A stretch of DNA of 64,000 nucleotides from a virus. Below the pieces are notes generated by a model. The model made no database searches, was not told the DNA's origin, and was given only the letters and a program-made list of their open reading frames with translations. Position 1 is the first letter of the stretch, and every line of letters starts with the position of its first letter. This document shows positions 2,512 through 60,956 of the stretch, in pieces. The stretch is from IMG/VR virus record IMGVR_UViG_3300029305_006397, one strand, 5' to 3'. Made by a program: the position numbers and the translations under genes.

Positions 2512-2673
2512 TGTACAGTCGGCATGAAGACGATAAACTCATGCAATTGGGTGATCAGCAGCCCTATAAATGCGAGTCGGCCATGACGGCGAGAATATCA
2601 TGGACGTGTAGTAGATGCTCGGAAGGGCATTGCGGCTGTTTGCCTAGCATAAAAGGCATCCACATACGATAAT

Positions 2674-2706
2674 GGGGAGAGCGATTGGCTCTCCCCTATT
2701 TTTTAC
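2674..2706 (+). terminator. rho-independent terminator between convergent modules
   Basis: GGGGAGAGC / GCTCTCCCC 9-bp stem with a 5-nt loop, followed by TATTTTTT. Lies between the plus-strand stop (2511) and the integrase stop (2719). Confidence 0.8.
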
Positions 2707-2718
2707 GATTTTGAATTA

Positions 2719-3687
2719 TTATTGTGTTCTGGAAACACGATGAACTCTACTATTCTTTTTCTTAATTACATCAAGAGGACTAAAGTCTTCGTAATTTTCT
2801 TTCAGATCTTCAGAGAACATTTTTACATATCTTCTAGTCATTTCAAGAGTGCGATGATCAAGTAGTTTTTGAAGCTTGAAAACGTCTCCTTTATTGCGGA
2901 GCCAATGTTTTGCGAAGGTGTGACGGAACATGTGAATTGATGTTTTGCCTACCTCGCGATATTCATTATATCTACGAATTGATATTTTGAGCGCATTGAC
3001 AGTCAGTTTTTCGTCGCCAACATTTGGGAAGAGATAGTCTTCTGGATCAGACATGCCGCGCCAAAGATCAATATAGTCCGCTAAGGCATTCTTTAAGGAA
3101 ATCGACATTGGCAGTATCATTGCATTTTTAGCTTTAGTGAATCTAATTGTGATTTCTTTATTGGCTAAATCTGCGTCTTTTATTCTGACGTTGCAAATAG
3201 TCGAAGCACGATTTCCTGTTGCAAGAATCCAATTTACAATTGCCCATGATCTCCATTCTGTAAATGAATCTTGCTTAGAAGGACGTTTCAGCAGAGCAAG
3301 CAGTTCCTGATCGTTATATGTTTCTATTATACTTTCTTGTTCTCCGACCAATTTTATTGCAAATTCGCTAAGGTACTTATGCTCCATGCACCAATACAGA
3401 AATGCCCTAACGTGGCGCAGATAGTGATTTACGGAAGCTGGGGAAAGGTCTTCGTCTAACAGTCGTTTTGAAAACTTGAGTATATATTCTTCTGTTACAT
3501 CTTTGATATTAGTCCGTAGACCCTCTTCGTCTAAAAAACTGTTCCACCTCTTGAAGCTGTCGTTGGCTGAACGTATCGTATCTTTAGAAGCATTTGATGC
3601 GATTTTCTCAGCGATGTACTTGTAATATGCTTGTTCAATTGTCAAACTAACTTCGTTCGTTCTGACCATTTTTCTTTGAGTTGCCAT
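2719..3687 (-). CDS. int: tyrosine recombinase / phage integrase
   Basis: C-terminal HMFRHTFAKHW ... LLDHRTLEMTRRYV gives the H-x-x-R, H and Y catalytic pattern. Start moved to the ATG at 3687 (MATQRK), which has SD AAAGGAGAA; the ORF-track start at 3759 has none. Confidence 0.85.
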   Translation of the reverse strand: MATQRKMVRTNEVSLTIEQAYYKYIAEKIASNASKDTIRSANDSFKRWNSFLDEEGLRTNIKDVTEEYILKFSKRLLDEDLSPASVNHYLRHVRAFLYWCMEHKYLSEFAIKLVGEQESIIETYNDQELLALLKRPSKQDSFTEWRSWAIVNWILATGNRASTICNVRIKDADLANKEITIRFTKAKNAMILPMSISLKNALADYIDLWRGMSDPEDYLFPNVGDEKLTVNALKISIRRYNEYREVGKTSIHMFRHTFAKHWLRNKGDVFKLQKLLDHRTLEMTRRYVKMFSEDLKENYEDFSPLDVIKKKNSRVHRVSRTQ

Positions 3688-3726
3688 ATGGGTTCTCCTT
3701 TCATAATGGTGATTAAAAGGTGAAAC

Positions 3727-3773
3727 CCTGATTTGATTTTGGGTGTCTGAAACTGACATCCTGATTTAATTGG
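3727..3773. repeat. two direct copies of CCTGATTT(G/A)AT in the integrase leader
   Basis: CCTGATTTGATTTTGG at 3727-3742 and CCTGATTTAATTGG at 3760-3773. They are related to the palindromes at 3995-4048. Confidence 0.6.
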
Positions 3774-3850: not shown

Positions 3851-3926
3851 TGGTACACCTTCAGGGGCTCGAACCCTGGACACCCTGATTAAGAGTCAGG
3901 TGCTCTACCAACTGAGCTAAAGGTGC
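3851..3926 (-). tRNA. tRNA-Lys(CTT), CCA encoded
   Basis: Hand-folded cloverleaf: GCACCTT TA GCTC AGTTGGTA GAGC A CCTGA CTCTTAA TCAGG GTGTC CAGGG TTCGAGC CCCTG AAGGTGT A CCA. Confidence 0.9.
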
Positions 3927-4064: not shown

Positions 4065-4093
4065 ATAATACAAAAAAATGAGCCTAAAGTCAA
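4065..4093 (-). promoter_or_regulatory. sigma-A/sigma-70-type promoter reading toward tRNA-Lys(CTT) and int
   Basis: On the minus strand: TTGACT, a 17-nt spacer, then TATTAT. Confidence 0.55.
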
Positions 4094-4130
4094 GTGAATT
4101 ATAGACAATTTTATATCGCTTAAGACAAAT

Positions 4131-4170
4131 AAAAAAGCCGCCACTCCAATAAAGGAGCGACGGCTATTTT
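4131..4170 (-). terminator. rho-independent terminator ending the long minus-strand gene train
   Basis: On the minus strand, an interrupted stem AGCCG..GCTCC tttatt GGAG..CGGCT is followed by TTTTTTATTT. An A-run on the other side suggests it may be bidirectional. Confidence 0.75.
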
Positions 4171-4734
4171 TTACGATTTAGGCACAGCACATTTGCAGTC
4201 AGATTTAAAACCACACATGGAACAGTTTACTTCCAGAGCCATTTGCCCAATTGTTTTTTCATATCCAGGATTTTCAATCACATAATCGCATTCATCTGCA
4301 ATTCCAGTGAACTGACCTTCATCGGAAAGACTACGACGATAAGCTTCTTCGATATTATCTCCTCTTTGTAAAATCTTGATCAATCGATCTCTGCGAGGTA
4401 CATCAATATAAAATGCGATGACATTAACTTTGTCATTTTTGCGAAGCTGACGAAGGCCATGAGGATTAGCAACGATAACTTTATCATCAGTACAATCTTC
4501 TACGGCGCAGCCATAATGCCAACCATTATAACAGGTAGATTCGGCAAAGAATCCTTCGTTCAGTCGTTTTTCAAATTCTTCTTCCGTGATAAAGTGATAA
4601 TCTACACCATTCACTTCCCCGCTTCTGGGTTGACGAGTAGTGTATGAAACCACATGGTTGTATCCGTATTCTTCTACGAGAAATTTTTCGATGCTGGACT
4701 TGCCAGATGCGCTTTCTCCTACGAGGACGATCAT
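4171..4734 (-). CDS. guanylate kinase-like (d)NMP kinase
   Basis: P-loop GESASGKSS and TTRQPRSGEVNGVDYHF guanylate-kinase signature. The ATG at 4734 has AAGGAG 9 nt upstream. C-terminal Cys-rich tail. Confidence 0.8.
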   Translation of the reverse strand: MIVLVGESASGKSSIEKFLVEEYGYNHVVSYTTRQPRSGEVNGVDYHFITEEEFEKRLNEGFFAESTCYNGWHYGCAVEDCTDDKVIVANPHGLRQLRKNDKVNVIAFYIDVPRRDRLIKILQRGDNIEEAYRRSLSDEGQFTGIADECDYVIENPGYEKTIGQMALEVNCSMCGFKSDCKCAVPKS

Positions 4735-50774: not shown

Positions 50775-50849
50775 TGGCTGGGGTAGTTGGATTCGAACCA
50801 ACGATGTGGGAGTCAAAGTCCCATGCCTTAGCCGCTTGGCTATACCCCA
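50775..50849 (-). tRNA. tRNA-Gln(TTG), CCA encoded
   Basis: TGGGGTA ... TGGGA CTTTGAC TCCCA ... GTTGG TTCGAAT CCAAC TACCCCA G CCA. Confidence 0.9.
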
Positions 50850-51234
50850 ACAGCAGAGAAGTTTAAACCTTGTGTTTTTTTAATGCGGAGCTAACGGGAC
50901 ATTGTTTCAGCTCAGGCATTTCTTCGTAACACATTACTCCTACTTCCAAAGGATGCACTTTAAGACCGTATGTCTTGCTGCTGCGCAGAGGTAGCATTTC
51001 CTCCGCTTGAACACTTTCGCAGTTCCCGGCACTAGACACTTTCGTAGTCTCCAACGCCATCGTTTGTATGCTCAATTTACTTTTACCCAGTAGCGAACTG
51101 GAGAAGGCTGAACCACCTGGCTATAAATACAACAATGGTCTAAGCGTTAGGCAGACGGTCAAGAATCTGCCCCACGGAATCGTACCGTGCCACCTGCGGT
51201 AAATAAGACGCAGGATCGAACCTCGCTTTTAGGA
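50850..51234 (-). ncRNA. structured non-coding block A of the tRNA island
   Basis: 385 nt, GC-rich, with no SD-preceded ORF. Holds several stems, including two tandem GAAA-tetraloop hairpins with compensatory changes and a T-arm-like CACGG TACGATT CCGTG. Confidence 0.5.
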
Positions 51235-51576
51235 TTAATTTTGTATGGGTTTTGCAATTCTAAGTGCAATTGCAATACAGTAAATGCATGCCCATACATA
51301 ATCAATTATGCCTTTCAAGCTCTCAAAAAATGTAGGCTTACGTTCCATCATACGACTAAGCTCGATCAAACGAACACGACGTTCACGGTCGCGAGTTTCC
51401 TCTACAATATGATGGATATCTGTAAGGTCTCGAAGCTGACGATTAAATTTCAAATTAAGCTCTTCAATTTCATTTTGGTGCTCAATTCTGGATTTCTCCA
51501 TTTCATGAGCATGGATTTCGTTGAGACGCCTGGTTTCATTAATTACCAAATTGATATCGCTGAGAGTGAGATTCAT
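51235..51576 (-). CDS. hypothetical coiled-coil protein with C-terminal hydrophobic segment
   Basis: 113 aa, with SD AGGAGG 6 nt upstream. Confidence 0.6.
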   Translation of the reverse strand: MNLTLSDINLVINETRRLNEIHAHEMEKSRIEHQNEIEELNLKFNRQLRDLTDIHHIVEETRDRERRVRLIELSRMMERKPTFFESLKGIIDYVWACIYCIAIALRIAKPIQN

Positions 51577-51620
51577 AGAAGCCTCCTATTGTTGTTCGTC
51601 GATATCTTTGAAAATAAAGA

Positions 51621-51697
51621 TGGTACTCCGGGAGGGACTTGAACCCCCGACTACAGACTTAGAAGGACTGTGCTCTTTCCAACTGAGCTACCGGAGC
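51621..51697 (-). tRNA. tRNA-Arg(TCT), CCA encoded
   Basis: GCTCCGG TA GCTC..GAGC A CAGTC CTTCTAA GTCTG ... GGGGG TTCAAGT CCCTC CCGGAGT A CCA. One U-U mismatch in the anticodon stem. Confidence 0.85.
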
Positions 51698-51701
51698 ATA
51701 T

Positions 51702-51777
51702 TGGCAGGGAAGAAGAGATTCGAACTCTTATCTACATCGGTTTTGGAGACCGGAGTTTTGCATTAAACTACTTCCCT
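51702..51777 (-). tRNA. tRNA-Trp(CCA), CCA encoded
   Basis: AGGGAAG ... CCGGT CTCCAAA ACCGA ... AAGAG TTCGAAT CTCTT CTTCCCT G CCA. Confidence 0.85.
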
Positions 51778-52127
51778 ATTTATTATTATTGAGCCATAGG
51801 ACTTTCACCTATGGGAGCAAGGGTTAGGTTTCGTGTTTGCAACCACTTTCTAACGGTCTATTTCTAATTACTAATCTTGCCGACCAAGCATCTACAATTT
51901 TACCTTGCTTTTTCATATTTCGTACTTTTAAGAGATTTTCTTTTTGCTCGGCATCAACAGGACTTGAACCTGAACCCTCCGGCCAGCACTATCCAGCCAG
52001 CATGCTCTCCACCTACACCAGACACCTAATCCCTGCCACACAAACCATCGGCTGTACCTTCCGTTATAGGCTTGTTTGTACGTTGTGGCATACTCCATAT
52101 GGCTTTGTACTCACCACTCAAAAATAA
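51778..52127 (-). ncRNA. structured non-coding block B of the tRNA island
   Basis: 350 nt with no plausible CDS. Contains a T-arm-like TCAGG TTCAAGT CCTGT with no matching acceptor stem. Confidence 0.4.
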
Positions 52128-52391
52128 TCACGTTTGCTTTTTGCGAAGCGCCTGAACCTTGCGATTAAAAGCATGAATCTCGCTTTTTGTAAGGTTGGGC
52201 TTGATTTCTACGATTGAAAGATTCCATGAATAAAGGATGTCTTTGCTAGTGCCAGATAACTTGTTTGCATTGACTACAAAACGAGCCAATTGATCAAGCG
52301 TTTCAAACCTACGAACAAAAGCTCCGCGACAATGACGATTAAAAGATTTAAACTTCAATCCTGACCTTGCAAATGCAACTTCATAACGCAT
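52128..52391 (-). CDS. hypothetical basic protein
   Basis: 87 aa. Its leader ATGAAAGAGGTAC is identical to that of the 40-aa ORF at 52832..52954. Confidence 0.5.
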   Translation of the reverse strand: MRYEVAFARSGLKFKSFNRHCRGAFVRRFETLDQLARFVVNANKLSGTSKDILYSWNLSIVEIKPNLTKSEIHAFNRKVQALRKKQT

Positions 52392-52672
52392 AAAGTACCT
52401 CTTTCATAACCGGGTTACGATCTACACGGTAGACGGCCTGTCCCCTACCCCTTTAGCCTTGGACTGTTTGGCTTCCCTCGTTGGTTGATGGTCGCGTCCA
52501 ACTCTTTCAACCTCTTTCACTGCCCCTCGAACGTATTACCAGTGCCAACACCCACTTAGCGTTAAGCAGAATTACATCGACGTTGTTGGCTGCGCGAATG
52601 ACTGCGCGTACATAAGCTTCATTAAATGGCCGTCTGCTGCGGCATCAACTTAAGAAAAGAAAGAAAGGAGTT
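52392..52672 (-). ncRNA. structured non-coding block C of the tRNA island
   Basis: 281 nt, GC-rich. Shares the module TCTGCYTAACGCTWAG plus a covarying stem with block A. Confidence 0.45.
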
Positions 52673-52743
52673 TGCTTCGAGACGGAATCGAACCGCCGAC
52701 AAGAGCCATTCCAGCTTTTACTCTTCCCCTGAGTTACCGAAGC
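52673..52743 (-). tRNA. aberrant tRNA (GAA at anticodon position, loop UGGAAUG, no CCA)
   Basis: Good acceptor, D and T arms (GCTTCGG ... GGCGG TTCGATT CCGTC TCGAAGC A). However, position 33 is G, position 37 is U, and the anticodon stem has one mismatch. Confidence 0.5.
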
Positions 52744-52746
52744 ATG

Positions 52747-52822
52747 TGGAGCTGGCGAAGGGACTTGAACCCGCAACCTGCTGATTACAAATCAGCTGCT
52801 CTGCCAATTGAGCTACGCCAGC
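52747..52822 (-). tRNA. tRNA-Thr(TGT), CCA encoded
   Basis: GCTGGCG TA GCTC AATTGGCA GAGC A GCTGA TTTGTAA TCAGC ... CGCCAGC T CCA. The T stem has one mismatch. Confidence 0.8.
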
Positions 52823-52831
52823 CCGATATAT

Positions 52832-52954
52832 TTACTGGGTTTCCAGTAAACGAATACGACGTTTGAGTTTATTGATAATGTTAACATTGACAACGGGATC
52901 GCGCATCTGCAGGATGTGCATGCGAATGGAGAGAGATTCGATAGAGTTTTTCAT
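52832..52954 (-). CDS. hypothetical 40-aa peptide
   Basis: MKNSIESLSIRMHILQMRDPVVNVNIINKLKRRIRLLETQ, with SD AAAGAGG. Below the ORF-track length cut-off. Confidence 0.35.
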   Translation of the reverse strand: MKNSIESLSIRMHILQMRDPVVNVNIINKLKRRIRLLETQ

Positions 52955-52984
52955 GGATTTGTACCTCTTTCATTGAATTTTAGA

Positions 52985-53061
52985 TGGAGCACCAGACGGG
53001 ACTCGAACCCGCAAACCTCCGGCTTGGAAGGCCAGCATTCTAACCATTGAACTACTGGTGC
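52985..53061 (-). tRNA. tRNA-Gly(TCC), CCA encoded
   Basis: GCACCAG ... CTGGC CTTCCAA GCCGG ... GCGGG TTCGAGT CCCGT CTGGTGC T CCA. Confidence 0.9.
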
Positions 53062-53131
53062 ATATACCCTAATCTGTTATCGTACAGATTGGTAGAAACG
53101 CCGGATTTGCACCGGGACTCGCGAGTGTCTT

Positions 53132-53180
53132 TGGGCGCAGCCAGGGATCGAACCCGGAAATCAAGACTTGGCTTCCTGCA
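53132..53180 (-). ncRNA. tRNA-like minihelix ending in CCA
   Basis: TGCAG (18 nt) CCGGG TTCGATC CCTGG CTGCG C CCA. A perfect T-arm stacks on a 5-bp acceptor-like stem, with no D or anticodon arm. Confidence 0.3.
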
Positions 53181-53316
53181 TTTTGCCTCTTAAATTACTG
53201 AGCCATAAAACTCCCGGTGGGTTCTCAGGCCCACATTGCCCGTTTACCGAAGCAGTGACGGCAGTCCTTCAGGTGATAAGCTTAAAGTCACCCTTGCGAA
53301 TTTGTACGACAGGAGT

Positions 53317-53402
53317 TGGTGAATACAATTGGATTCGAACCAATGCTCGACGACTGAGCCAAAGGCATGGGCCGTCCGTGCTAACCGCTACACCATATAT
53401 TC
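53317..53402 (-). ncRNA. 86-nt tRNA-like RNA with non-canonical anticodon region, CCA encoded
   Basis: Canonical acceptor (GAATATA/TGTATTC), D arm, T arm (ATTGG TTCGAAT CCAAT) and ACCA. The 33-nt central region has no convincing 5-bp stem with a 7-nt loop (best candidate is a weak GCC reading); instead a 6-bp stem GACGGC/GTCGTC forms. Confidence 0.5.
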
Positions 53403-53550
53403 ATGCATCCGACTAAGCAGTAGTCGGCACTGTGAAACACGCCGCGTGACACCTCGTCTGCGTCTGCGTCTGCGATTTCAATCAGTGATATCGCCACTGA
53501 TCCTCCCCTTGTCATCGGGAAAACTATCTTGACCAAGCGATATTTGGGAC

Positions 53551-53627
53551 TGGTGGGGGCCACAGGACTCGAACCTGTGACCGATCGGTTATGAGCCGAC
53601 TGCTCTGACCAACTGCGCTAGACCCCC
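53551..53627 (-). tRNA. tRNA-Met(CAT), or Ile2 if lysidinylated; CCA encoded
   Basis: GGGGGTC ... GTCGG CTCATAA CCGAT ... ACAGG TTCGAGT CCTGT GGCCCCC A CCA. Confidence 0.9.
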
Positions 53628-54006
53628 ATATGTAATGCCCCTGGTTGTATTAAATACATATGCATATGGATAGCTACGTCCCGCGAAGGAGTATTCGCGT
53701 GTATGCCTGACTTAAATCACGGACTCCAATTGTATTACTATGTGACGCATACTTTCGTTTTTATCCGCTATCTGGACGGGGCAGGTTAAGCGATAACCTA
53801 TGCCTTTCGACAACCCAGCCTCTAATAAGAGGCTGACGCTCATGGCCTAATGTCCTGTTTCAACTCGCCATGACGAGCAATCACCTGCAAGAATCGAACC
53901 TGCCTGGAAGTCAAGCTTCCTTTACTGCCGCCCAGAAGTGATTAAGATGGATTGTTTGACTTTAATTTGATAAGCGGAGGCCAAACAACCAAATTTCTCT
54001 CACGAT
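53628..54006 (-). ncRNA. structured non-coding block E of the tRNA island
   Basis: 379 nt with hairpins CGCGAA/TTCGCG, CAGCCTC/GAGGCTG and AGGTTA/TAACCT. Contains a degenerate tRNA-like element. Confidence 0.5.
53880..53942 (-). pseudogene. 63-nt degenerate tRNA-like element (Gln-like relic)
   Basis: 7-bp acceptor ATCACTT/AGGTGAT and T arm GCAGG TTCGATT CTTGC. The anticodon arm GGAAG CUUGA CUUCC has only a 5-nt loop, the D arm is truncated, and there is no CCA. Confidence 0.4.
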
Positions 54007-54092
<86 letters not shown>

Positions 54093-54096
54093 AGAT

Positions 54097-54119
54097 TGGT
54101 GGGCCTTAACGTCGGCCCA
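54097..54119 (-). ncRNA. hairpin ending in ACCA, 4 nt upstream of tRNA-Leu(TAA)
   Basis: T GGGCC GACGTTAA GGCCC A CCA. It mimics an acceptor end. Confidence 0.3.
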
Positions 54120-54170
54120 AACGACAGATGGGTTTATGCGCTGCGTAACCTCTTTTGCTCTTAACCGCGA

Positions 54171-54253
54171 TGGTGGGGATGGTGGGACTTGAACCCACAC
54201 GGTCTAGCCGTCGCATTTTGAGTGCGATGCGTCTGCCATTCCGCCACAACCCC
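54171..54253 (-). tRNA. tRNA-Leu(CAA), type II, CCA encoded
   Basis: GGGGTTG TG GCGGAATGGCAGACGC A TCGCA CTCAAAA TGCGA, a variable arm, then GTGGG TTCAAGT CCCAC CATCCCC A CCA. Confidence 0.85.
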
Positions 54254-54366
54254 GCCTAGTATGGCATGCCGTTCGGCTTACGACGGCCATAACGCCGGAT
54301 TTAGGAAATCACCCAAGAAAGGAGGTGTACATATGAAACCGTATCTCACCCGGAATCAGATGTAAG

Positions 54367-54442
54367 TGGTGAAAGTGGCGGGATTCGAACCCGCGACTCA
54401 CAGATTAAAAGTCTGTTACTCTACCGACTGAGTTACACTTCC
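54367..54442 (-). tRNA. tRNA-Lys(TTT), CCA encoded; first gene of the island
   Basis: GGAAGTG TA ACTC AGTCGGTA GAGT A ACAGA CTTTTAA TCTGT GAGTC GCGGG TTCGAAT CCCGC CACTTTC A CCA. Confidence 0.9.
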
Positions 54443-57146: not shown

Positions 57147-57587
57147 TTATTCAACAACCAGTTCAAGTTTTGTAAAAGTGGAAAGTTCATCGACAAGATA
57201 GATTTCAAAGCAATCGCAGCCATCCTGAGTGCCAACGTATTTAAAAGCAATATGTGCAATATCCAATGCTTCTTCTACCATATAATCGTAACCATCCTGA
57301 TCGAGAATCCAGAGGGCATCGGTACATTCAGAAAGGCGCAGATTGTAACCGTAGTCAAAACCCAGCAAGTCAAAGCTGCCTCTATTCTTTTCGTAATCAA
57401 GGACTCGAAGTGTTTTGATGGTACGAGATTCTTTAATTTCTGAGCGAATGCGGCGCAACACAAAAATGGGATCATCAAAAGATTGGGAAACCTCGTTAAT
57501 CCATGAATGATCCTGGGTAAATAAAGAACAAGGATTATCGATGATTTGAAGATGAAAAGGATTGGCGACGATGATTTCAGTATTCAT
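57147..57587 (-). CDS. hypothetical protein
   Basis: 146 aa with SD AAGGAGAG. Preceded by two short upstream ORFs. Confidence 0.55.
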   Translation of the reverse strand: MNTEIIVANPFHLQIIDNPCSLFTQDHSWINEVSQSFDDPIFVLRRIRSEIKESRTIKTLRVLDYEKNRGSFDLLGFDYGYNLRLSECTDALWILDQDGYDYMVEEALDIAHIAFKYVGTQDGCDCFEIYLVDELSTFTKLELVVE

Positions 57588-57626
57588 AAAAATCTCTCCT
57601 TATAAAATAATCTTAAACTGGTATTC

Positions 57627-57655
57627 TTTACAAGGAGTAGAAAATGTGCTATGAT
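57627..57655 (+). promoter_or_regulatory. plus-strand sigma-A/sigma-70 promoter of the antisense sRNA
   Basis: TTTACA (57627-57632), a 17-nt spacer, then TATGAT (57650-57655) preceded by TGTGC (extended -10). Confidence 0.6.
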
Positions 57656-57659
57656 ATAG

Positions 57660-57838
57660 ACGCATAAAGACCTCCAAGTACGGCATCTTTTCGCATAAAG
57701 ACCTCCTGTACTGAAGCCTTTATGTCCAACAAAGCACACTTAACGAAGCCATCCGGTAAAGACGGCCAATTAAGCTGTTTTGTTGTTGGGGCCACCTTGA
57801 GTTGATCCGCCAAGATTCAGAACTCAAGGTGGTTTTTA
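57660..57838 (+). ncRNA. candidate ~175-nt antisense sRNA
   Basis: Bounded by the promoter above and a 12-bp terminator stem. Carries two copies of CGCATAAAGACCTCC (anti-SD/anti-ATG). It is the only plus-strand transcription unit seen in about 57 kb. Confidence 0.55.
57792..57838 (+). terminator. rho-independent terminator of the sRNA
   Basis: CCACCTTGAGTT / AACTCAAGGTGG 12-bp stem followed by TTTTT. There is no U-tract on the minus strand. Confidence 0.75.
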
Positions 57839-57882
57839 TGTTCCAGAACGCTTATCGAACAAGCGTTTGGTTGATATTTCTA

Positions 57883-57911
57883 ATGATACCACATAATGTC
57901 ACGTTTTGCAA
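57883..57911 (-). promoter_or_regulatory. minus-strand sigma-A/sigma-70 promoter convergent with the sRNA promoter
   Basis: On the minus strand: TTGCAA, a 17-nt spacer, then TATCAT preceded by TGTGG. Confidence 0.55.
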
Positions 57912-57948
57912 TGGTACTAAATGGGATTTTCAGAACATTCGTTCGATT

Positions 57949-58905
57949 TTACGTTTTGTTCGGGCTAATTGGTACATCAAACATATCTACTCGTCCACGC
58001 ATAGTAACAAGAAAATTCGGAAGCTCAGACTTGTATTTACTTCGTTTCAATTCATTTTGAATAATTTCAAATCCTCGCTTATTTCGGGAGCGCTTTTCAA
58101 ATACCTCAGACATATCAAGTCCTTCCTTATGAAGATTGATCGCAATACGATGCATAATTCCACTTATATAAACATCATACGGGCGAATATCATAATCAAT
58201 ATAGCGTTTTGCAATATTTCTAAACGCAGTTTGATGTTTAACGTGGGCAAACCTCCCGTCAGACGAAGATCGAGCTGCCATCTTGAAACAACTATCTACA
58301 TGTTCGCCTTCCAATGGAGAACGAGAAACCGTTCCGAATCGGTTGGGATGTTCCCAAACACTTATTTTGCTAAGTTCTATGAGATCGTTAGCAAGTTTTG
58401 CAGATATTTCCAAATCGTAGATTTCGCCCTCGTCTGTGTGCAAAGTTACAAAGCCATCATGGATATCTTCACTCTTCAAGTGAACCAACACATCCAAATT
58501 ATCATTATAAATGCCTTCATAAATAGAACGCATCAGACAGGTATAGTACAGCACATTGTATTCTTCTTCAGTTTGAATCCTGGAGCAAAGAGCTTCAAAA
58601 TCTGCATTTGAGATGTATTTCTTTGAATTTTCCTTATACATTTCCCAAAACACGCCTTTATCAAATCTGCGAACAGCGCTAACGATATCTTTTCTGTTTA
58701 TAAAATAAGCATATTTTATAATAATGGTAAGATATTGAGATACAATGCGATCCGATACAGGTTTAGCCTCAATGAGAATATCAGCAATCGACTGCTGTGT
58801 AAAACTTTCAAAATCATATTCTTCCAAAGCGGTAAATGTTTTTGCAGTTCGTTTCAATCCAGAAGATTCGATTGAATCTAAAAACCGGGCATACGTTTCC
58901 TTCAT
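57949..58905 (-). CDS. hypothetical protein, possibly a degenerate tyrosine-recombinase-like fold
   Basis: 318 aa with SD AGAGAGGAAA. The layout is loosely integrase-like, but no H-x-x-R / Y catalytic set could be identified. Confidence 0.55.
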   Translation of the reverse strand: MKETYARFLDSIESSGLKRTAKTFTALEEYDFESFTQQSIADILIEAKPVSDRIVSQYLTIIIKYAYFINRKDIVSAVRRFDKGVFWEMYKENSKKYISNADFEALCSRIQTEEEYNVLYYTCLMRSIYEGIYNDNLDVLVHLKSEDIHDGFVTLHTDEGEIYDLEISAKLANDLIELSKISVWEHPNRFGTVSRSPLEGEHVDSCFKMAARSSSDGRFAHVKHQTAFRNIAKRYIDYDIRPYDVYISGIMHRIAINLHKEGLDMSEVFEKRSRNKRGFEIIQNELKRSKYKSELPNFLVTMRGRVDMFDVPISPNKT

Positions 58906-59449: not shown

Positions 59450-60253
59450 TCAAATATATTCAAGACCAAGTTCCACGCTATTGAAAATGCTTTCTACTTC
59501 GGTATCCATGATGCCAATATACTTTAGTGTAACTTGCGGACTGGAATGACCAAACGCCTGTTGAAGTATAACCAGTGCTTTAGACTTATCTTCTGCGTTG
59601 TGCCATCTCCAATAGCCCCACGTTTTTCTCAGTGAATGCGACCCGATATTTTGTTTGATTCCAGCTTCCGCCGCTGTATCTTTTATAACTCTCCAGAGAT
59701 ATTTAGATTCAATCGGATCGTTTCCCTTTTGAGAAGGAAAAAGGTAATCGTCTAAATTATCTATTGGGTATTCTGAAATGAAATTCATAATTGCAGCCTG
59801 TACAGTTTGATTGAAAAACAGCTTTACAAATTTCTTTTGCTTCTTTTGCTTTTGCGGTTGCAAGGCATAGAATTGTTTAAAAGCAAGGTTTCCGGCATTA
59901 TTTCGTTCGAGAAAGAACGACCAGCGCAAAGTGCGAAGATCGGATGCCCGAACACCAACATTGATTCCGATCAAAAACAGTAGCTTGTTTCGCGAAGCAG
60001 TTTTTTTGCGACATACGCCAGAAGCTGACGTAATATGTTTATCAAATATGGCGATCATCGCCTGAATTTCTTCCTGGGTGCGAAATGCGTACACTTCTGA
60101 AGATTCGCCTGCAATTTTATTATTGCGGCTTTTATTGATCGAACCATCCAGATTGTACTTGACTTTCTTTTTCTGTTTACCGCCCTGCAAAACGCTAAGA
60201 GGAACGATGTTTGAAGTGTCCCGTTCAATCGGGAAAGCGACCACATTATTCAT
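59450..60253 (-). CDS. tyrosine recombinase / integrase (second copy)
   Basis: GSHSLRKTWGY (H-x-x-R) and FGHSSPQVTLKYIG (H ... Y). The ATG at 60253 overlaps the upstream stop (ATGAATAA). Confidence 0.8.
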   Translation of the reverse strand: MNNVVAFPIERDTSNIVPLSVLQGGKQKKKVKYNLDGSINKSRNNKIAGESSEVYAFRTQEEIQAMIAIFDKHITSASGVCRKKTASRNKLLFLIGINVGVRASDLRTLRWSFFLERNNAGNLAFKQFYALQPQKQKKQKKFVKLFFNQTVQAAIMNFISEYPIDNLDDYLFPSQKGNDPIESKYLWRVIKDTAAEAGIKQNIGSHSLRKTWGYWRWHNAEDKSKALVILQQAFGHSSPQVTLKYIGIMDTEVESIFNSVELGLEYI

Positions 60254-60956
60254 GTACGATTTCAATCCTTTCTTTAATTTTTGATGTGTCAATGACCAAT
60301 TCATCTTCATCTCGGCCATTGAAATAAGCGAGGATTTCAGATTTATCGACGGTTGCCCTTTGAATATAACCTTTTTCATCGGCTATATCAAAGCGGTGGG
60401 CAAACCACTTTGCAGTTTCAAGACTCCAAGTCCACGAAAGACCATTGGGGTTACGACCCACAGAGACGCCACGATATACCGTAAGATGCTGAGGCAACCT
60501 TTCGTAATAAGCAAGTTCATCAGCATCCATGAGATACTTTTTATTTGCCTGACGGAACCACGATGCAGCTGTACGCAAGGAAACATTTGCATCTTGATTT
60601 GGATTTTCTACGTTTACCCATACAGTTGCCAACATCCGATCCCGTTCTTCCTTTGAAAGATAGGTGCGGATATGTTTTAGAAAAGTAAGCTGATAAGCTT
60701 TTCGGATCATCATGACGACGCCAAATGCATTAGTTTGCTTATCAATTACCGGAAGCATTGCTTCACGAGCAAGATTAAGCTCATTTGAATCTAACAGATT
60801 CAGCATTTTCCATTCGCCATTAATCATCGCTGGATGCGTTGCAGTTTCAAAAACAGGGTGATAGAGAATAAAAGGCAAATCGCTTTGATGGATATTCATA
60901 TATAAGAATATCCTTGCCATTCTCTTGACTTCATTCAAATCAGTTTGCCTTTTCAT
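60246..60956 (-). CDS. putative ADP-ribosyltransferase (R-S-E type) with unknown N-terminal domain
   Basis: The C-terminal third has LTVYRG (Arg), GLSWTWSLETAKWF (S-x-S region) and GRDEDELVID (E-x-E). Start at MKRQTD (SD GGGAGAA). Confidence 0.5.
   Translation of the reverse strand: MKRQTDLNEVKRMARIFLYMNIHQSDLPFILYHPVFETATHPAMINGEWKMLNLLDSNELNLAREAMLPVIDKQTNAFGVVMMIRKAYQLTFLKHIRTYLSKEERDRMLATVWVNVENPNQDANVSLRTAASWFRQANKKYLMDADELAYYERLPQHLTVYRGVSVGRNPNGLSWTWSLETAKWFAHRFDIADEKGYIQRATVDKSEILAYFNGRDEDELVIDTSKIKERIEIVHE

What the first reader, a model, noticed from the sequence alone, without database searches (positions are those of the whole stretch)
57600..57911. Antisense sRNA with face-to-face promoters over a duplicated SD-ATG leader
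This is the only convincing plus-strand transcription unit in about 57 kb. Its promoter is TTTACA-17-TATGAT with a TGTGC extended -10 (57627-57655). A 12-bp terminator stem plus U5 follows at 57792-57838, predicting an RNA of about 175 nt. A minus-strand promoter (TTGCAA-17-TATCAT, 57883-57911) fires toward it, so the transcripts overlap by roughly 215 nt. The sRNA contains two identical 15-mers, CGCATAAAGACCTCC, at 57661-57675 and 57692-57706. On the minus strand these read GGAGGTCTTTATGCG, that is SD, a 5-nt spacer and ATG. They open two short upstream ORFs: 57649-57696 (15 aa) and 57600-57665 (21 aa). The second uORF's stop codon abuts the SD of gene 57147..57587. The sRNA promoter lies inside those uORFs. 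This compact arrangement resembles an antisense/leader-peptide switch, or a P2/186-like convergent-promoter switch. It would control the operon that runs toward the ParB-like gene, rtcB and the tRNA island, next to the integrase/ART module.
Basis: seen in the sequence. Interest (0 to 1): 0.7.

Follow-up and report, generated by a model that had tools for sequence, protein, structure and literature searches.

The report
CopA-like antisense RNA guarding phage operon
A 360-base gap between two genes of a large gut phage holds a small antisense RNA gene facing a promoter that carries DNA-damage (LexA-type) boxes, laid out like the RNA switches that control plasmid copy number; it is a new example of a known type of switch.

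Summary

Eight related phage lineages keep the same layout even where the sequence has diverged:
- A minus-strand promoter (TTGCAA-17-TGnTAnnnT) carries Firmicutes-type LexA boxes (GAAC-N4-GTTY).
- A hairpin follows whose stem covaries and whose loop is CGCCAA on the plus strand (UUGGCG on the mRNA).
- Then comes a leader ORF with a strong SD.
- A plus-strand promoter (TTTACA-17-TGnTAnnnT) sits inside that ORF.
- A hairpin buries the SD of the first gene.

The plus-strand unit is therefore most likely a real cis-antisense sRNA: about 177 nt here and 75-85 nt in distant relatives. Its 5' end covers the leader-ORF ribosome site. Its terminator loop matches the kissing loop of CopA and Inc RNA.

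A P2/186-type switch is not supported. No Rfam family reaches its threshold, and the function of the first gene is unknown.

Verdict: a new member of the antisense RNA/leader-ORF control class, in a phage and wired to putative SOS boxes. Nothing has been shown at the transcript level.

The parts
57933..57944 (.). LexA-type (Cheo) box 1, GAACGAATGTTC, centred about -62 from the predicted minus-strand start site
   Evidence: Perfect GAAC-N4-GTTY match. The half-sites are kept and N4 varies across W, L052, L053, L069 and L070. In L073, L074 and L081 the single box sits at -50/-51. Consensus taken from PMC4234289.
57883..57911 (-). Promoter of the leftward operon: TTGCAA-17-TGgTATCAT. Predicted start site about 57876.
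   Evidence: The -35 is the same in 8 of 9 lineages. The -10 changes TATCAT -> TAATAT / TATAAT / TATTAT while keeping T1, A2 and T6; TGn is kept in 8 of 9.
57857..57868 (.). LexA-type box 2, GAACAAGCGTTT, centred about +14 of the minus transcript.
   Evidence: It is present at +14 to +20 in all five long-form lineages with a different N4 in each. The hairpin drawn is not maintained in L052/L053.
57792..57837 (+). Stem-loop with a CGCCAA hexaloop followed by T5. This is the terminator and recognition loop of the sRNA. On the mRNA the same hairpin shows UUGGCG.
   Evidence: Stem covariation: 8 of 10 pairs change on both sides, 94% of cells are paired, 0 of 500 shuffles reach this. The loop motif is kept in 6 of 8 lineages; L069 has UGCCAA and L070 has the loop inverted. 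It aligns to the loop of the Rfam CopA and Spy779816 models.
57725..57790 (+). Middle hairpin H2. Found only in the long-form lineages; the interior varies.
   Evidence: The outer stem is kept and the interior replaced in L052/L053 and in L069/L070. It is absent from L074, L077 and L081.
57713..57724 (-). Anti-RBS segment CAUAAAGGCUUC of the mRNA leader. It can pair with either GGAGGUCUUUAUG copy.
   Evidence: I7, I8. The helix is much more stable on the minus strand (-23 to -26 against -9 to -17 kcal/mol) because of G-U pairs.
57692..57706 (-). Copy 2 of the 15-mer (SD-N5-AUG on the mRNA), which opens the 15-aa uORF1 57649..57696. Lineage-specific.
   Evidence: Not conserved.
57661..57675 (-). 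Copy 1 of the 15-mer: the SD and start codon of the leader ORF (uORF2). It is complementary to the first ~15 nt of the sRNA.
   Evidence: GGAGGTCTTYATGCG is invariant in the five long-form lineages. L074, L077 and L081 have an equivalent SD plus AUG/GUG at the same place relative to the sRNA start.
57600..57665 (-). Leader ORF (uORF2, 21 aa). It crosses the plus promoter and the 5' arm of hairpin H0, and its TAA overlaps the SD of the first gene.
   Evidence: An ORF at this position is 18-54 aa long in 6 of 8 lineages. Frame and peptide are not conserved.
57627..57655 (+). sRNA promoter: TTTACA-17-TGcTATGAT
   Evidence: All eight element-bearing lineages keep T(T/A)(T/G)ACA, a 17-nt spacer, TGn and TAnnnT, with -10 variants TATGAT, TATTAT, TAAAAT and TAATAT. 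L073, which has no antisense unit, lacks it.
57660..57838 (+). Predicted cis-antisense sRNA, about 177 nt
   Evidence: Promoter plus terminator. No Rfam family reaches its gathering score.
57593..57641 (-). Hairpin H0. The anti-SD CUCCUUGUAAAG (inside the leader ORF, overlapping the sRNA -35) pairs with UUUUAUAAGGAG, which is the SD of gene 57147..57587.
   Evidence: The loop varies in sequence and length. L074 carries a compensatory change (CCCC:GGGG instead of CUCC:GGAG) and L081 a wobble variant.
57147..57587 (-). First gene of the controlled operon (146 aa, function unknown)
   Evidence: No Pfam, PHROG or PDB match and no fold match. It evolves fast between lineages.

Best explanation
The spacer is a two-layer control cassette at the head of a long leftward operon: a 146-aa protein, a ParB-like protein, RtcB and a tRNA island. 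The operon belongs to a roughly 130-kb phage of the Clostridium c-st / phiCD211 type.

Layer 1 is transcriptional. The operon promoter at 57911-57883 is flanked by two Firmicutes-type LexA boxes, so it is probably held off by host LexA and released by DNA damage. This step is inferred.

Layer 2 is post-transcriptional. A presumably constitutive promoter on the other strand (57627-57655) makes an antisense sRNA of about 177 nt that ends at a strong terminator. The sRNA's CGCCAA hexaloop would kiss the UUGGCG loop of the hairpin near the 5' end of the mRNA leader. Its 5' end would then pair across the SD and start codon of a short leader ORF. Translation of that ORF is needed to melt hairpin H0, which buries the SD of the first gene. 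Blocking the leader ORF therefore keeps the first gene untranslated. This is the logic of R1 CopA/tap/repA and of IncI-alpha/IncB Inc RNA/repY/repZ.

When the boxes are vacated, mRNA would outnumber the sRNA. Transcription running across the sRNA promoter may also reduce sRNA supply, which would give a threshold switch.

What is shown and what is inferred:
- Shown: the sequence elements, their conservation, and covariation of the terminator stem (plus single compensatory or wobble changes in H0).
- Inferred: that both RNAs are made, that LexA binds the boxes, that the leader ORF is translated, and the direction of regulation.
For: - Plus-strand unit. The promoter keeps the classic pattern in all eight element-bearing lineages: -35 T..ACA, a 17-nt spacer, TGn, and -10 positions T1, A2 and T6, with the middle of the -10 varying. 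The sequence downstream diverges beyond what nhmmer can detect.
- A hairpin with a T-run on the plus strand only follows in 7 of 8 lineages. Its stem has 8 of 10 covarying pairs; 0 of 500 shuffles match this and slid controls give 2 or fewer.
- It is the only such promoter on the plus strand of the window and one of the three strongest terminators.
- Position rule. In every lineage the predicted sRNA start lies 4-7 nt past the leader-ORF start codon, so its first ~15 nt are the anti-SD/anti-start.
- Loop. CGCCAA is an exact hexaloop in the window fold and is kept in 6 of 8 lineages over four different stem sequences. It aligns with the loop of the Rfam CopA consensus. Sub-threshold, full-length hits fall on the predicted strand in three lineages: CopA 24.5, 20.5 and 16.6 bits; Spy779816 31.5 and 25.7 bits; ctRNA_pND324 21.6 bits. 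On the mRNA strand the hairpin weakly matches PK-repBA and PK-repZ. A control terminator hit none of these families.
- The UUGGCG target-loop motif of ColIb-P9 is named in the title of Asano et al. 1998, cited in PMC10724649. IncK RNAI primers in that paper show the CCCGCCAAAG loop.
- mRNA side. The anti-RBS helix is 9-14 kcal/mol more stable on the minus strand. H0 carries a compensatory CUCC:GGAG -> CCCC:GGGG change. All leader ORFs cross the 5' arm of H0, whatever their frame or length.
- LexA boxes. Perfect GAAC-N4-GTTY sites sit at fixed positions in 7 of 9 lineages with varying N4. The consensus comes from PMC4234289. The nearest cultured relatives infect Clostridium and Clostridioides.
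- Mechanistic precedents: PMC5717011 and PMC8053102 and PMC1891008.
Against: - There are no expression data of any kind.
- All Rfam hits are far below gathering scores, and a generic terminator also collects 15-26-bit hits.
- The hairpin stem covaries equally well for either strand. G-U asymmetry there is one pair each way.
- The anti-RBS helix H1 favours the mRNA strand. So part of the conservation is explained without any sRNA.
- The T-run in L070 is weak (CGTTCTATTT).
- The sRNA -35 overlaps the H0 anti-SD, so its conservation has two possible causes.
- LexA box 1 sits at -62 or -50, upstream of the -35, which is not a classic repressing position. The host, and so its LexA motif, is inferred.
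- The first gene is not a recognisable replication initiator, toxin or antirepressor.
- L077 has no clear leader-ORF start codon or LexA box.
- Only eight lineages, all from metagenomes, are available.
Confidence: 0.6

Rival explanations
1. The sRNA is real but works mainly at the RNA-synthesis or RNA-decay level rather than through leader-ORF coupling. Options are an sRNA-mRNA duplex cut by RNase III or J, premature termination at H0 (a hairpin followed by U4-5 just before the start codon), or transcriptional interference between the face-to-face promoters.
For: - The sRNA is complementary to nearly the whole leader, which would give a duplex of 75-177 bp.
- H0 is followed by U5 in the window and by U4 in L053, L069, L070 and L074.
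- The predicted start sites are only about 215 bp apart in long forms and about 100 bp apart in short forms, and the operon transcript must cross the sRNA promoter.
Against: - H0 is AU-rich with a loop of about 20 nt (dG -13 to -14 kcal/mol), so it would be a poor terminator. It has no U-run in L077 or L081.
- The sRNA terminates before the operon promoter, so it cannot occlude it.
- A strong SD plus start codon sits exactly under the sRNA 5' end, and it is conserved. That is not needed for a decay-only or interference-only mechanism.
Confidence: 0.2
2. No functional plus-strand RNA exists. The conserved blocks serve only the mRNA leader: a cis-acting riboregulator with an RBS-sequestering helix, a leader ORF and an SD-masking hairpin. 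The plus-strand promoter and terminator look-alikes would be by-products.
For: - H1 is much more stable on the mRNA strand.
- The -35 of the plus promoter coincides with the H0 anti-SD arm.
- In L074 the hairpin has a G-U pair on the mRNA strand where the plus strand has A-C.
Against: - The -10 hexamer, the TGn and the exact 17-nt spacer lie outside every predicted mRNA helix. They are read in different frames in different lineages, yet they keep the promoter-specific T1/A2/T6 pattern in all eight lineages.
- The T-run follows the hairpin on the plus strand only.
- L073, the lineage that lacks the plus promoter, also lacks the hairpin, the leader ORF and H0.
- A loop inversion in L070 would destroy a strand-specific mRNA loop function but preserves a kissing pair.
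Confidence: 0.1
3. Type I toxin-antitoxin pair: the uORF peptide is a toxin and the sRNA is its antitoxin.
For: A short ORF has its RBS covered by a cis-antisense RNA whose promoter lies inside the ORF. It sits behind an SOS-type promoter, as in tisB/IstR-1 and symE/SymR.
Against: - The peptide is not conserved. The frame shifts in L069/L070, lengths range from 18 to 54 aa, and the ORF runs into gene 1 in three lineages.
- MRLYHSTFSTPCKEYQFKIIL is not a hydrophobic membrane peptide.
- The residues that look conserved are simply the promoter read in one frame.
Confidence: 0.03
4. A DNA-level site: the inverted repeat CCACCTTGAG...CTCAAGGTGG is a recombination or binding site for the adjacent MrpR-like tyrosine recombinase, or an attP core.
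For: The site lies directly downstream of a recombinase gene. The stem sequence is identical in five lineages, and the loop is inverted in L070.
Against: - In L074, L077 and L081 the arms change sequence but stay complementary. That pattern indicates structure, not protein recognition.
- The arms are 17-21 bp apart.
- L054 carries an 83%-identical recombinase without the element, and homology stops at the stop codon.
- No match was found in bacterial genomes.
Confidence: 0.03

Closest known systems
IncFII plasmid R1: CopA antisense RNA / tap leader peptide / repA (Rfam RF00042 CopA-like RNA)
   Same: - The antisense RNA is made from a promoter inside the leader of the target mRNA.
- It has a long terminal stem-loop with a CGCCAA loop.
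- It blocks a short leader ORF to which the downstream gene is translationally coupled.
- The target promoter is also under a protein repressor: CopB there, presumably LexA here.
   Different: - Only a sub-threshold Rfam score (24.5 against 60 bits).
- The host element is a Clostridia-type phage, not an enterobacterial plasmid.
- The controlled gene is not a recognisable RepA.
- The sRNA 5' end lies directly over the leader-ORF RBS.
- The long form carries an extra hairpin and a duplicated RBS.
IncI-alpha / IncB / IncK: Inc RNA (RNAI) / repY leader peptide / repZ, with the 5'-UUGGCG-3' target loop
   Same: The same hexanucleotide pair is used: UUGGCG in a 5' stem-loop of the mRNA and CGCCAA in the antisense loop. 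There is also a leader ORF and an SD-masking structure.
   Different: No conserved activating pseudoknot partner. A CGCCAA at 57562-57567 in gene 1 exists only in the window and L052. The PK-repBA and PK-repZ models score only 14 and 8 bits.
E. coli symE / SymR, and tisB / IstR-1
   Same: An SOS (LexA-box) promoter is combined with a constitutive cis-antisense RNA. The antisense promoter is embedded in the ORF it represses and covers its RBS (PMC1891008).
   Different: Here the directly masked ORF is a non-conserved leader ORF coupled to a downstream gene. There is no SymE/AbrB-fold protein. The boxes are the Gram-positive GAAC-N4-GTTC type.
Phage antisense or immunity RNAs (P22 sar/ant; P1 c4; P4 CI). 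From my own knowledge, not checked in the library.
   Same: A small phage RNA keeps an early, antirepressor-type operon translationally silent. In P22, sar starts inside the ant leader and covers its RBS.
   Different: No sequence or structural relation was tested. P1 and P4 RNAs are processed from the same strand. None is known to use the CGCCAA/UUGGCG loop or LexA boxes.
Bacillus phage GIL01: host LexA as the lysogeny repressor
   Same: A temperate, plasmid-like phage of a Firmicute has early promoters carrying host SOS boxes instead of a CI operator (PMC4551915).
   Different: GIL01 uses the small protein gp7 as a LexA co-repressor. No antisense RNA is described there.

Membership tests
Countertranscript (antisense) RNA with leader-ORF coupling (IncFII / IncI-alpha / IncB type) | An antisense RNA gene with its own promoter inside the target leader, ending at an intrinsic terminator | tested here: met
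   Sequence prediction plus conservation in 8 lineages. No transcript data.
Countertranscript (antisense) RNA with leader-ORF coupling (IncFII / IncI-alpha / IncB type) | Major stem-loop with a 5'-CGCCAA-3' loop in the antisense RNA and 5'-UUGGCG-3' in the target | tested here: met
   Exact hexaloop in the window. Kept in 6 of 8 lineages. L069 has UGCCAA and L070 an inverted loop.
Countertranscript (antisense) RNA with leader-ORF coupling (IncFII / IncI-alpha / IncB type) | A short leader ORF whose initiation region is covered by the antisense RNA | tested here: met
   An SD plus AUG lies 4-7 nt inside the sRNA 5' end in 6 lineages; 2 more have GUG.
Countertranscript (antisense) RNA with leader-ORF coupling (IncFII / IncI-alpha / IncB type) | The downstream gene is translationally coupled to the leader ORF through an SD-masking structure | tested here: inconclusive
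   Hairpin H0 is predicted in all lineages, with one compensatory change (L074) and one wobble change (L081). Every leader ORF crosses its 5' arm. Coupling itself needs reporter fusions.
Countertranscript (antisense) RNA with leader-ORF coupling (IncFII / IncI-alpha / IncB type) | The controlled gene is the replication initiator | tested here: not met
   The 146-aa product has no Pfam, PHROG, PDB or fold match. The next gene is ParB-like.
Rfam RF00042 CopA-like RNA | Score at or above the gathering threshold (60 bits) | tested here: not met
   24.5 bits (window), 20.5 (L077) and 16.6 (L081). All are full-length on the predicted strand.
Rfam RF02589 Spy779816 | Score at or above the gathering threshold (67 bits) | tested here: not met
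   31.5 bits with E = 5e-4 in a 111-nt search, and 25.7 bits in L077.
IncI-alpha / IncB pseudoknot-activated repZ/repA | A conserved downstream CGCCAA near the RBS that pairs with the UUGGCG loop | tested here: not met
   CGCCAA at 57562-57567 is found only in the window and L052. It is absent in L053, L069, L070, L074 and L081.
SOS (LexA)-regulated promoter, Firmicutes type | GAAC-N4-GTT(C/T) box at or near the promoter | tested here: met
   Two perfect boxes in the window and perfect boxes at fixed positions in 7 of 9 lineages. Consensus from PMC4234289.
SOS (LexA)-regulated promoter, Firmicutes type | LexA binding and damage inducibility | not testable with these tools
   Needs EMSA or footprinting and mitomycin C induction. 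The host is inferred from the c-st / phiCD211 relationship.
Type I toxin-antitoxin | A conserved small, usually hydrophobic, toxic peptide | tested here: not met
   Peptide frame, length and sequence are not conserved.
P2/186-type convergent-promoter switch | Two face-to-face promoters, each driving a coding operon, with transcripts that traverse each other's promoter | tested here: not met
   The plus transcript has no conserved ORF and ends at 57838, about 38 nt before the minus start site.

The most novel reading that the evidence does not exclude
The CGCCAA/UUGGCG kissing-loop countertranscript with a leader ORF is so far a hallmark of enterobacterial plasmid replication control. Here it may have been recruited by Clostridia-type ~130-kb temperate phage(-plasmids) as a diffusible RNA determinant of immunity or copy number, wired to the host SOS response. 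Under this reading, the loop point change in L069 (UGCCAA), the clean loop inversion in L070, the swapped H2 interiors and the seed change UUUAUG/UUCAUG would be specificity switches between competing phages. They would be analogous to new incompatibility groups arising from loop mutations.
Probability: 0.3. Interest if true: 0.7.

Novelty: new member of a known kind. Interest (0 to 1): 0.55.

Why it matters
If the two RNAs are confirmed, this would be a documented antisense RNA/leader-ORF control module in large, uncultivated gut and rumen phages of Firmicutes. It is combined with putative host LexA boxes. That would give a concrete and testable picture of how such phages keep an early operon silent and release it on DNA damage.

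The same six-base kissing loop seen in IncFII and IncI plasmids turns up here on unrelated stems, in a distant host group. That is either deep homology or striking convergence. Either way it supports the idea that this loop is a generally optimal device for fast RNA-RNA recognition.

Practically, the find supplies a compact repressor/antisense cassette and defines a candidate Rfam family.

It is not a new principle. Every component has a well-studied precedent.

Tried and rejected
- Rfam at gathering thresholds finds nothing in the region. The sub-threshold hits are treated as a resemblance only.
- The 15-mer, the terminator hairpin and the plus promoter have no related exact match in IMG/VR: the 39 hits to the 15-mer are all single-copy chance matches, and the other two patterns found nothing. 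The hairpin has no match in GTDB genomes.
- The repeat pattern scanned against JGI metagenomes returned only unrelated tandem repeats.
- blastn of the 1-kb region against INPHARED phages found nothing. The recombinase has no tblastn match in phages or plasmids.
- Single-sequence scans of viral contigs with gene 1 and with the ParB-like protein failed. A profile of ParB-like proteins brought in 79 IMG/VR loci. nhmmer found the element in none of them, and a motif scan found only the L079-L081 lineage.
- One IMG/VR scan was wasted on a pattern with the wrong spacer length. The corrected pattern re-found only the L079-L081 lineage among 25 hits.
- First gene: an AlphaFold model (pLDDT 68) has no convincing fold match in PDB or BFVD. 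The best is E = 6.6e-4 with TM 0.45, to a phage protein labelled heparinase. PDB profile searches were empty.
- My early impression that the spacer is far more conserved than its flanking genes was wrong as a global statement. Overall identity is about equal to the ParB-like gene and only moderately above gene 1. Conservation comes in blocks.
- The apparent conservation of the uORF peptide (Y-x-S-T...C-K) is rejected. It is the promoter (-10, TGTGC, -35) read in one frame, and L069/L070 read it in another.
- The 27-aa plus-strand ORF at 57722..57805 is rejected. It is 13 aa and different in L052.
- An IncI-type pseudoknot partner is rejected as not conserved.
Full report

Yes. Window 57588-57948 is a 361-nt spacer between two minus-strand genes. 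One is 57147..57587 (146 aa). The other is 57949..58905 (318 aa), whose relatives carry the MrpR_C_cat tyrosine-recombinase domain.

The plus strand carries TTTACA-17-TGcTATGAT at 57627-57655, a 10/12 match with an extended -10. It also carries a 12-bp perfect stem at 57792-57803 / 57821-57832 followed by T5. The minus strand carries TTGCAA-17-TGgTATCAT at 57911-57883.

The 15-mer CGCATAAAGACCTCC occurs exactly twice.

In the whole 64-kb window this is the only plus-strand site of the form '-35-like / 17 nt / TGn / TAnnnT'. The hairpin is one of the three strongest hairpin+T-run elements. The predicted RNA folds well beyond shuffled controls, with z = -4.4.

Two corrections apply. The overlap of the two transcripts equals the sRNA length, about 177 nt, not 215 nt. 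The plus transcript also ends about 38 nt before the minus-strand start site.

**2. Relatives**

The same phage occurs, with an identical or near-identical spacer (one contig differs at one base), in a dozen JGI and ENA contigs. Homologues of the flanking proteins led to diverged lineages:
- L052 and L053.
- L069, L070, L073, L074/L075 and L077.
- L079-L081 from IMG/VR.

The closest cultured phages by Pol III alpha are Clostridium phage c-st (55% identity) and C. difficile phiCD211/phiCDIF1296T (49%). The host is therefore probably a member of the Clostridia, and the genome is about 130 kb.

L054 carries an 83%-identical recombinase in a different context and lacks the element. Homology there stops at the stop codon. 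The element therefore belongs with the downstream operon, not with the recombinase.

**3. What is conserved**

The following order is read in mRNA (minus-strand) orientation. It recurs in W, L052, L053, L069, L070, L074/75, L077 and L081.

(a) One or two GAAC-N4-GTT(C/T) boxes. This is the LexA operator of Bacillus and Clostridium (PMC4234289). Perfect boxes lie at -62/-63 and at +14 to +20 in the five long forms, and at -50/-51 in L074 and L081. L073 has a one-mismatch box at -50. The half-sites are fixed and the central four bases vary. The window holds 7 distinct perfect sites where about 3 matches are expected from shuffles, and two of them flank this promoter.

(b) The promoter TTGCAA-17-TGnTAnnnT. 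Its -10 changes TATCAT -> TAATAT / TATAAT / TATTAT.

(c) A hairpin with four different stem sequences that remain complementary. Eight of 10 pairs change on both sides, 94% of cells are paired, and 0 of 500 shuffles reach that. The loop keeps CUUGGCG(G/A).

(d) A strong SD plus start codon.

(e) On the opposite strand, T(T/A)(T/G)ACA-17-TGnTAnnnT, with -10 variants TATGAT, TATTAT, TAAAAT and TAATAT.

(f) Hairpin H0, which pairs CUCCUUGUAAAG with UUUUAUAAGGAG, the SD of the first gene. Its loop varies. L074 carries a compensatory CCCC:GGGG change.

(g) The first gene.

A T-run follows hairpin (c) on the plus strand only. It is clear in seven lineages and weak in L070.

L073 has a 93-nt spacer. 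It keeps only the box and the TTGCAA promoter and lacks (c) to (f) together.

The plus-strand promoter and terminator therefore travel as a unit. The RNA they define is about 177 nt in the window clade and 75-85 nt in L074, L077 and L081.

**4. What is not conserved**

- Copy 2 of the 15-mer reads AUA in L052/L053 and AUG-UAA in L069. It is absent from L070 and from all short forms.
- uORF1 exists only in the window lineage.
- A 2-nt indel shifts the uORF2 frame in L069/L070. The ORF is 18-54 aa long and ends before, at, or inside gene 1.
- The apparent peptide motif is the promoter read in one frame.
- The middle hairpin H2 is confined to long forms, and its interior is replaced between lineages.
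- Overall nucleotide identity of the spacer is about that of the ParB-like gene and moderately above gene 1. Conservation comes in blocks.

**5. Which strand?**

Both strands appear to matter.

The anti-RBS helix CAUAAAGGCUUC: GGAGGUCUUUAUG is 9-14 kcal/mol more stable on the mRNA strand because of G-U pairs. H0 involves the SD. These are mRNA features.

Three features have no mRNA explanation: the plus -10/TGn/17-nt spacing, which lies outside every mRNA helix and is read in different frames; the plus-only T-run; and the co-loss of all parts in L073. They argue for a real plus-strand RNA.

In every lineage the predicted sRNA start lies 4-7 nt beyond the leader-ORF start codon. Its first ~15 nt are therefore the exact complement of the SD plus start codon.

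**6. The loop**

In the window the sRNA hairpin closes on an exact CGCCAA hexaloop.

Targeted Rfam scans give sub-threshold hits, on the predicted strand and over the full model length, in three lineages whose stems differ:
- CopA (RF00042): 24.5, 20.5 and 16.6 bits. The model consensus loop uCGCCAAAa aligns to the sRNA loop.
- Spy779816 (RF02589): 31.5 and 25.7 bits, again through a CGCCAA loop.
- ctRNA_pND324: 21.6 bits.

On the mRNA strand the same hairpin weakly matches PK-repBA and PK-repZ, the target stem-loops of IncB and IncI-alpha.

A control terminator at 4085-4195 collected 29 weak hits, and none was to these families.

The 5'-UUGGCG-3' target-loop motif of ColIb-P9 is named in the title of Asano et al. 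1998, as cited in PMC10724649. IncK RNAI primers in that paper show the CCCGCCAAAG loop. My recollection, not checked here, is that this loop forms a YUNR U-turn that speeds up kissing.

L069 has UGCCAA. In L070 the whole loop is inverted: ATCTTGCCGGAT against ATCTTGGCGGAT. An inversion keeps a complementary loop pair but would destroy any strand-specific loop function.

**7. Mechanism proposed (confidence 0.6)**

Transcription of the operon is held off at the boxed promoter, probably by host LexA.

Any mRNA that is made meets a constitutively produced antisense RNA. The two loops kiss through CGCCAA and UUGGCG, and pairing then spreads to the 5' end of the sRNA. This occludes the leader-ORF ribosome site.

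Without leader-ORF translation H0 stays closed, so the SD of gene 1 remains masked.

After DNA damage the mRNA exceeds the sRNA. Read-through across the sRNA promoter may lower sRNA supply further.

This is the logic of two known systems:
- R1 CopA/tap/repA, where CopB corresponds to LexA, and IncI/IncB Inc RNA/repY/repZ (PMC5717011, PMC8053102).
- SOS-controlled symE/SymR, where the antisense promoter sits inside the ORF it represses (PMC1891008).

The elements and their conservation are shown. Expression, LexA binding, coupling and the direction of regulation are inferred.

**8. Rivals**

- The sRNA acts mainly through duplex cleavage, attenuation at H0, or promoter interference (0.2).
- There is no functional sRNA, only an mRNA riboregulator (0.1).
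- A type I toxin-antitoxin pair (0.03). Rejected because the peptide is not conserved.
- A recombinase or attP site (0.03). Rejected because the arms covary and L054 lacks the element.
- A P2/186-type switch fails, because the plus transcript is non-coding and terminates before the opposing promoter.

**9. What it controls**

The function of gene 1 is unknown:
- It has no Pfam, PHROG or PDB match.
- An AlphaFold model with pLDDT 68 has no fold match.
- It diverges fast between lineages.

Downstream lie a ParB-like protein, RtcB, a tRNA island with a pistol ribozyme and RAGATH-36, and further on the replication genes. Whether the cassette gates lytic entry, plasmid-state copy number or superinfection immunity cannot be decided here.

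**10. Novelty and score**

No Rfam family reaches threshold, and the element is rare in public collections: eight lineages, only one of them in IMG/VR.

Each component has a classic precedent, so this is a new member of a known kind. Three points would interest a specialist:
- the CGCCAA/UUGGCG loop recurs on unrelated stems in a Firmicutes phage;
- it is coupled to SOS-type boxes;
- the loop is inverted in one lineage.

Interest is 0.55.

Noticed in passing
window 50778-54442 (-), with 53809-53878 and 51031-51192: The tRNA island downstream of rtcB holds 11 Rfam tRNA hits (a twelfth lies at 3854-3926), a pistol ribozyme (61.6 bits, gathering 34.5) and a RAGATH-36 RNA (73.2 bits, gathering 70). 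Self-cleaving or ribozyme-associated RNAs are therefore interleaved with phage tRNAs.
   Followed up: no
L070:5228-5268 compared with window 57792-57832: The interior of the conserved hairpin is cleanly inverted in L070: ATCTTGCCGGAT on the opposite strand against ATCTTGGCGGAT. The 11-bp arms are unchanged. This is a small inversion between inverted repeats that swaps which RNA carries the UUG(G/C)CG loop.
   Followed up: partly
window 57562-57567 (-): Codons 7-9 of the 146-aa gene contain CGCCAA, which is complementary to the UUGGCG loop of the leader hairpin. That is the arrangement that forms the activating pseudoknot in IncI-alpha/IncB repZ. It is present only in the window and L052, so it is probably chance.
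   Followed up: partly
L054:3945-5303: An 83%-identical copy of the 318-aa MrpR-like recombinase, with its upstream 179-aa gene, sits in a different context. A nitroreductase gene lies upstream and an unrelated 437-aa ORF downstream. Homology to the window breaks exactly at the recombinase stop codon, which suggests a mobile two-gene module.
   Followed up: partly
L074:2887-4035, L075:1999-3147, L077:2060-3271: Three relatives carry a GmrSD_N-domain gene (a type IV restriction-like defence gene) between the integrase and the MrpR-like recombinase. The window has other small ORFs at that place. This looks like a variable slot for defence genes.
   Followed up: no
window 54698-54670 (-): A second good minus-strand promoter, TTGACA-17-TGnTAGTAT, lies between the rtcB stop (54730) and the first tRNA (54442). 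The tRNA island may therefore have its own promoter.
   Followed up: no
window 2651-2704 (+) and 4119-4184 (both strands): These are the other two strongest terminators in the window. One closes the short plus-strand gene block 184-2511. The other is a bidirectional hairpin next to the integrase gene 2719..3759 and the tRNA at 3854-3926. This is the strand-switch region and a possible att/tRNA integration module.
   Followed up: no
window 57722-57805 (+): A 27-aa ORF lies inside the predicted sRNA, with its ATG in GCCTTTATG. It has no SD. In L052 it is 13 aa with a different sequence, so it is probably not coding.
   Followed up: partly
window 2719-3759, 57949-58905, 59450-60379 (all -): There are three tyrosine-recombinase-type genes in one 64-kb stretch: two Phage_integrase and one MrpR-like. 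This, together with the ParB-like gene, fits a phage that both integrates or resolves multimers and is maintained like a plasmid, as reported for c-st and phiCD211 relatives.
   Followed up: no
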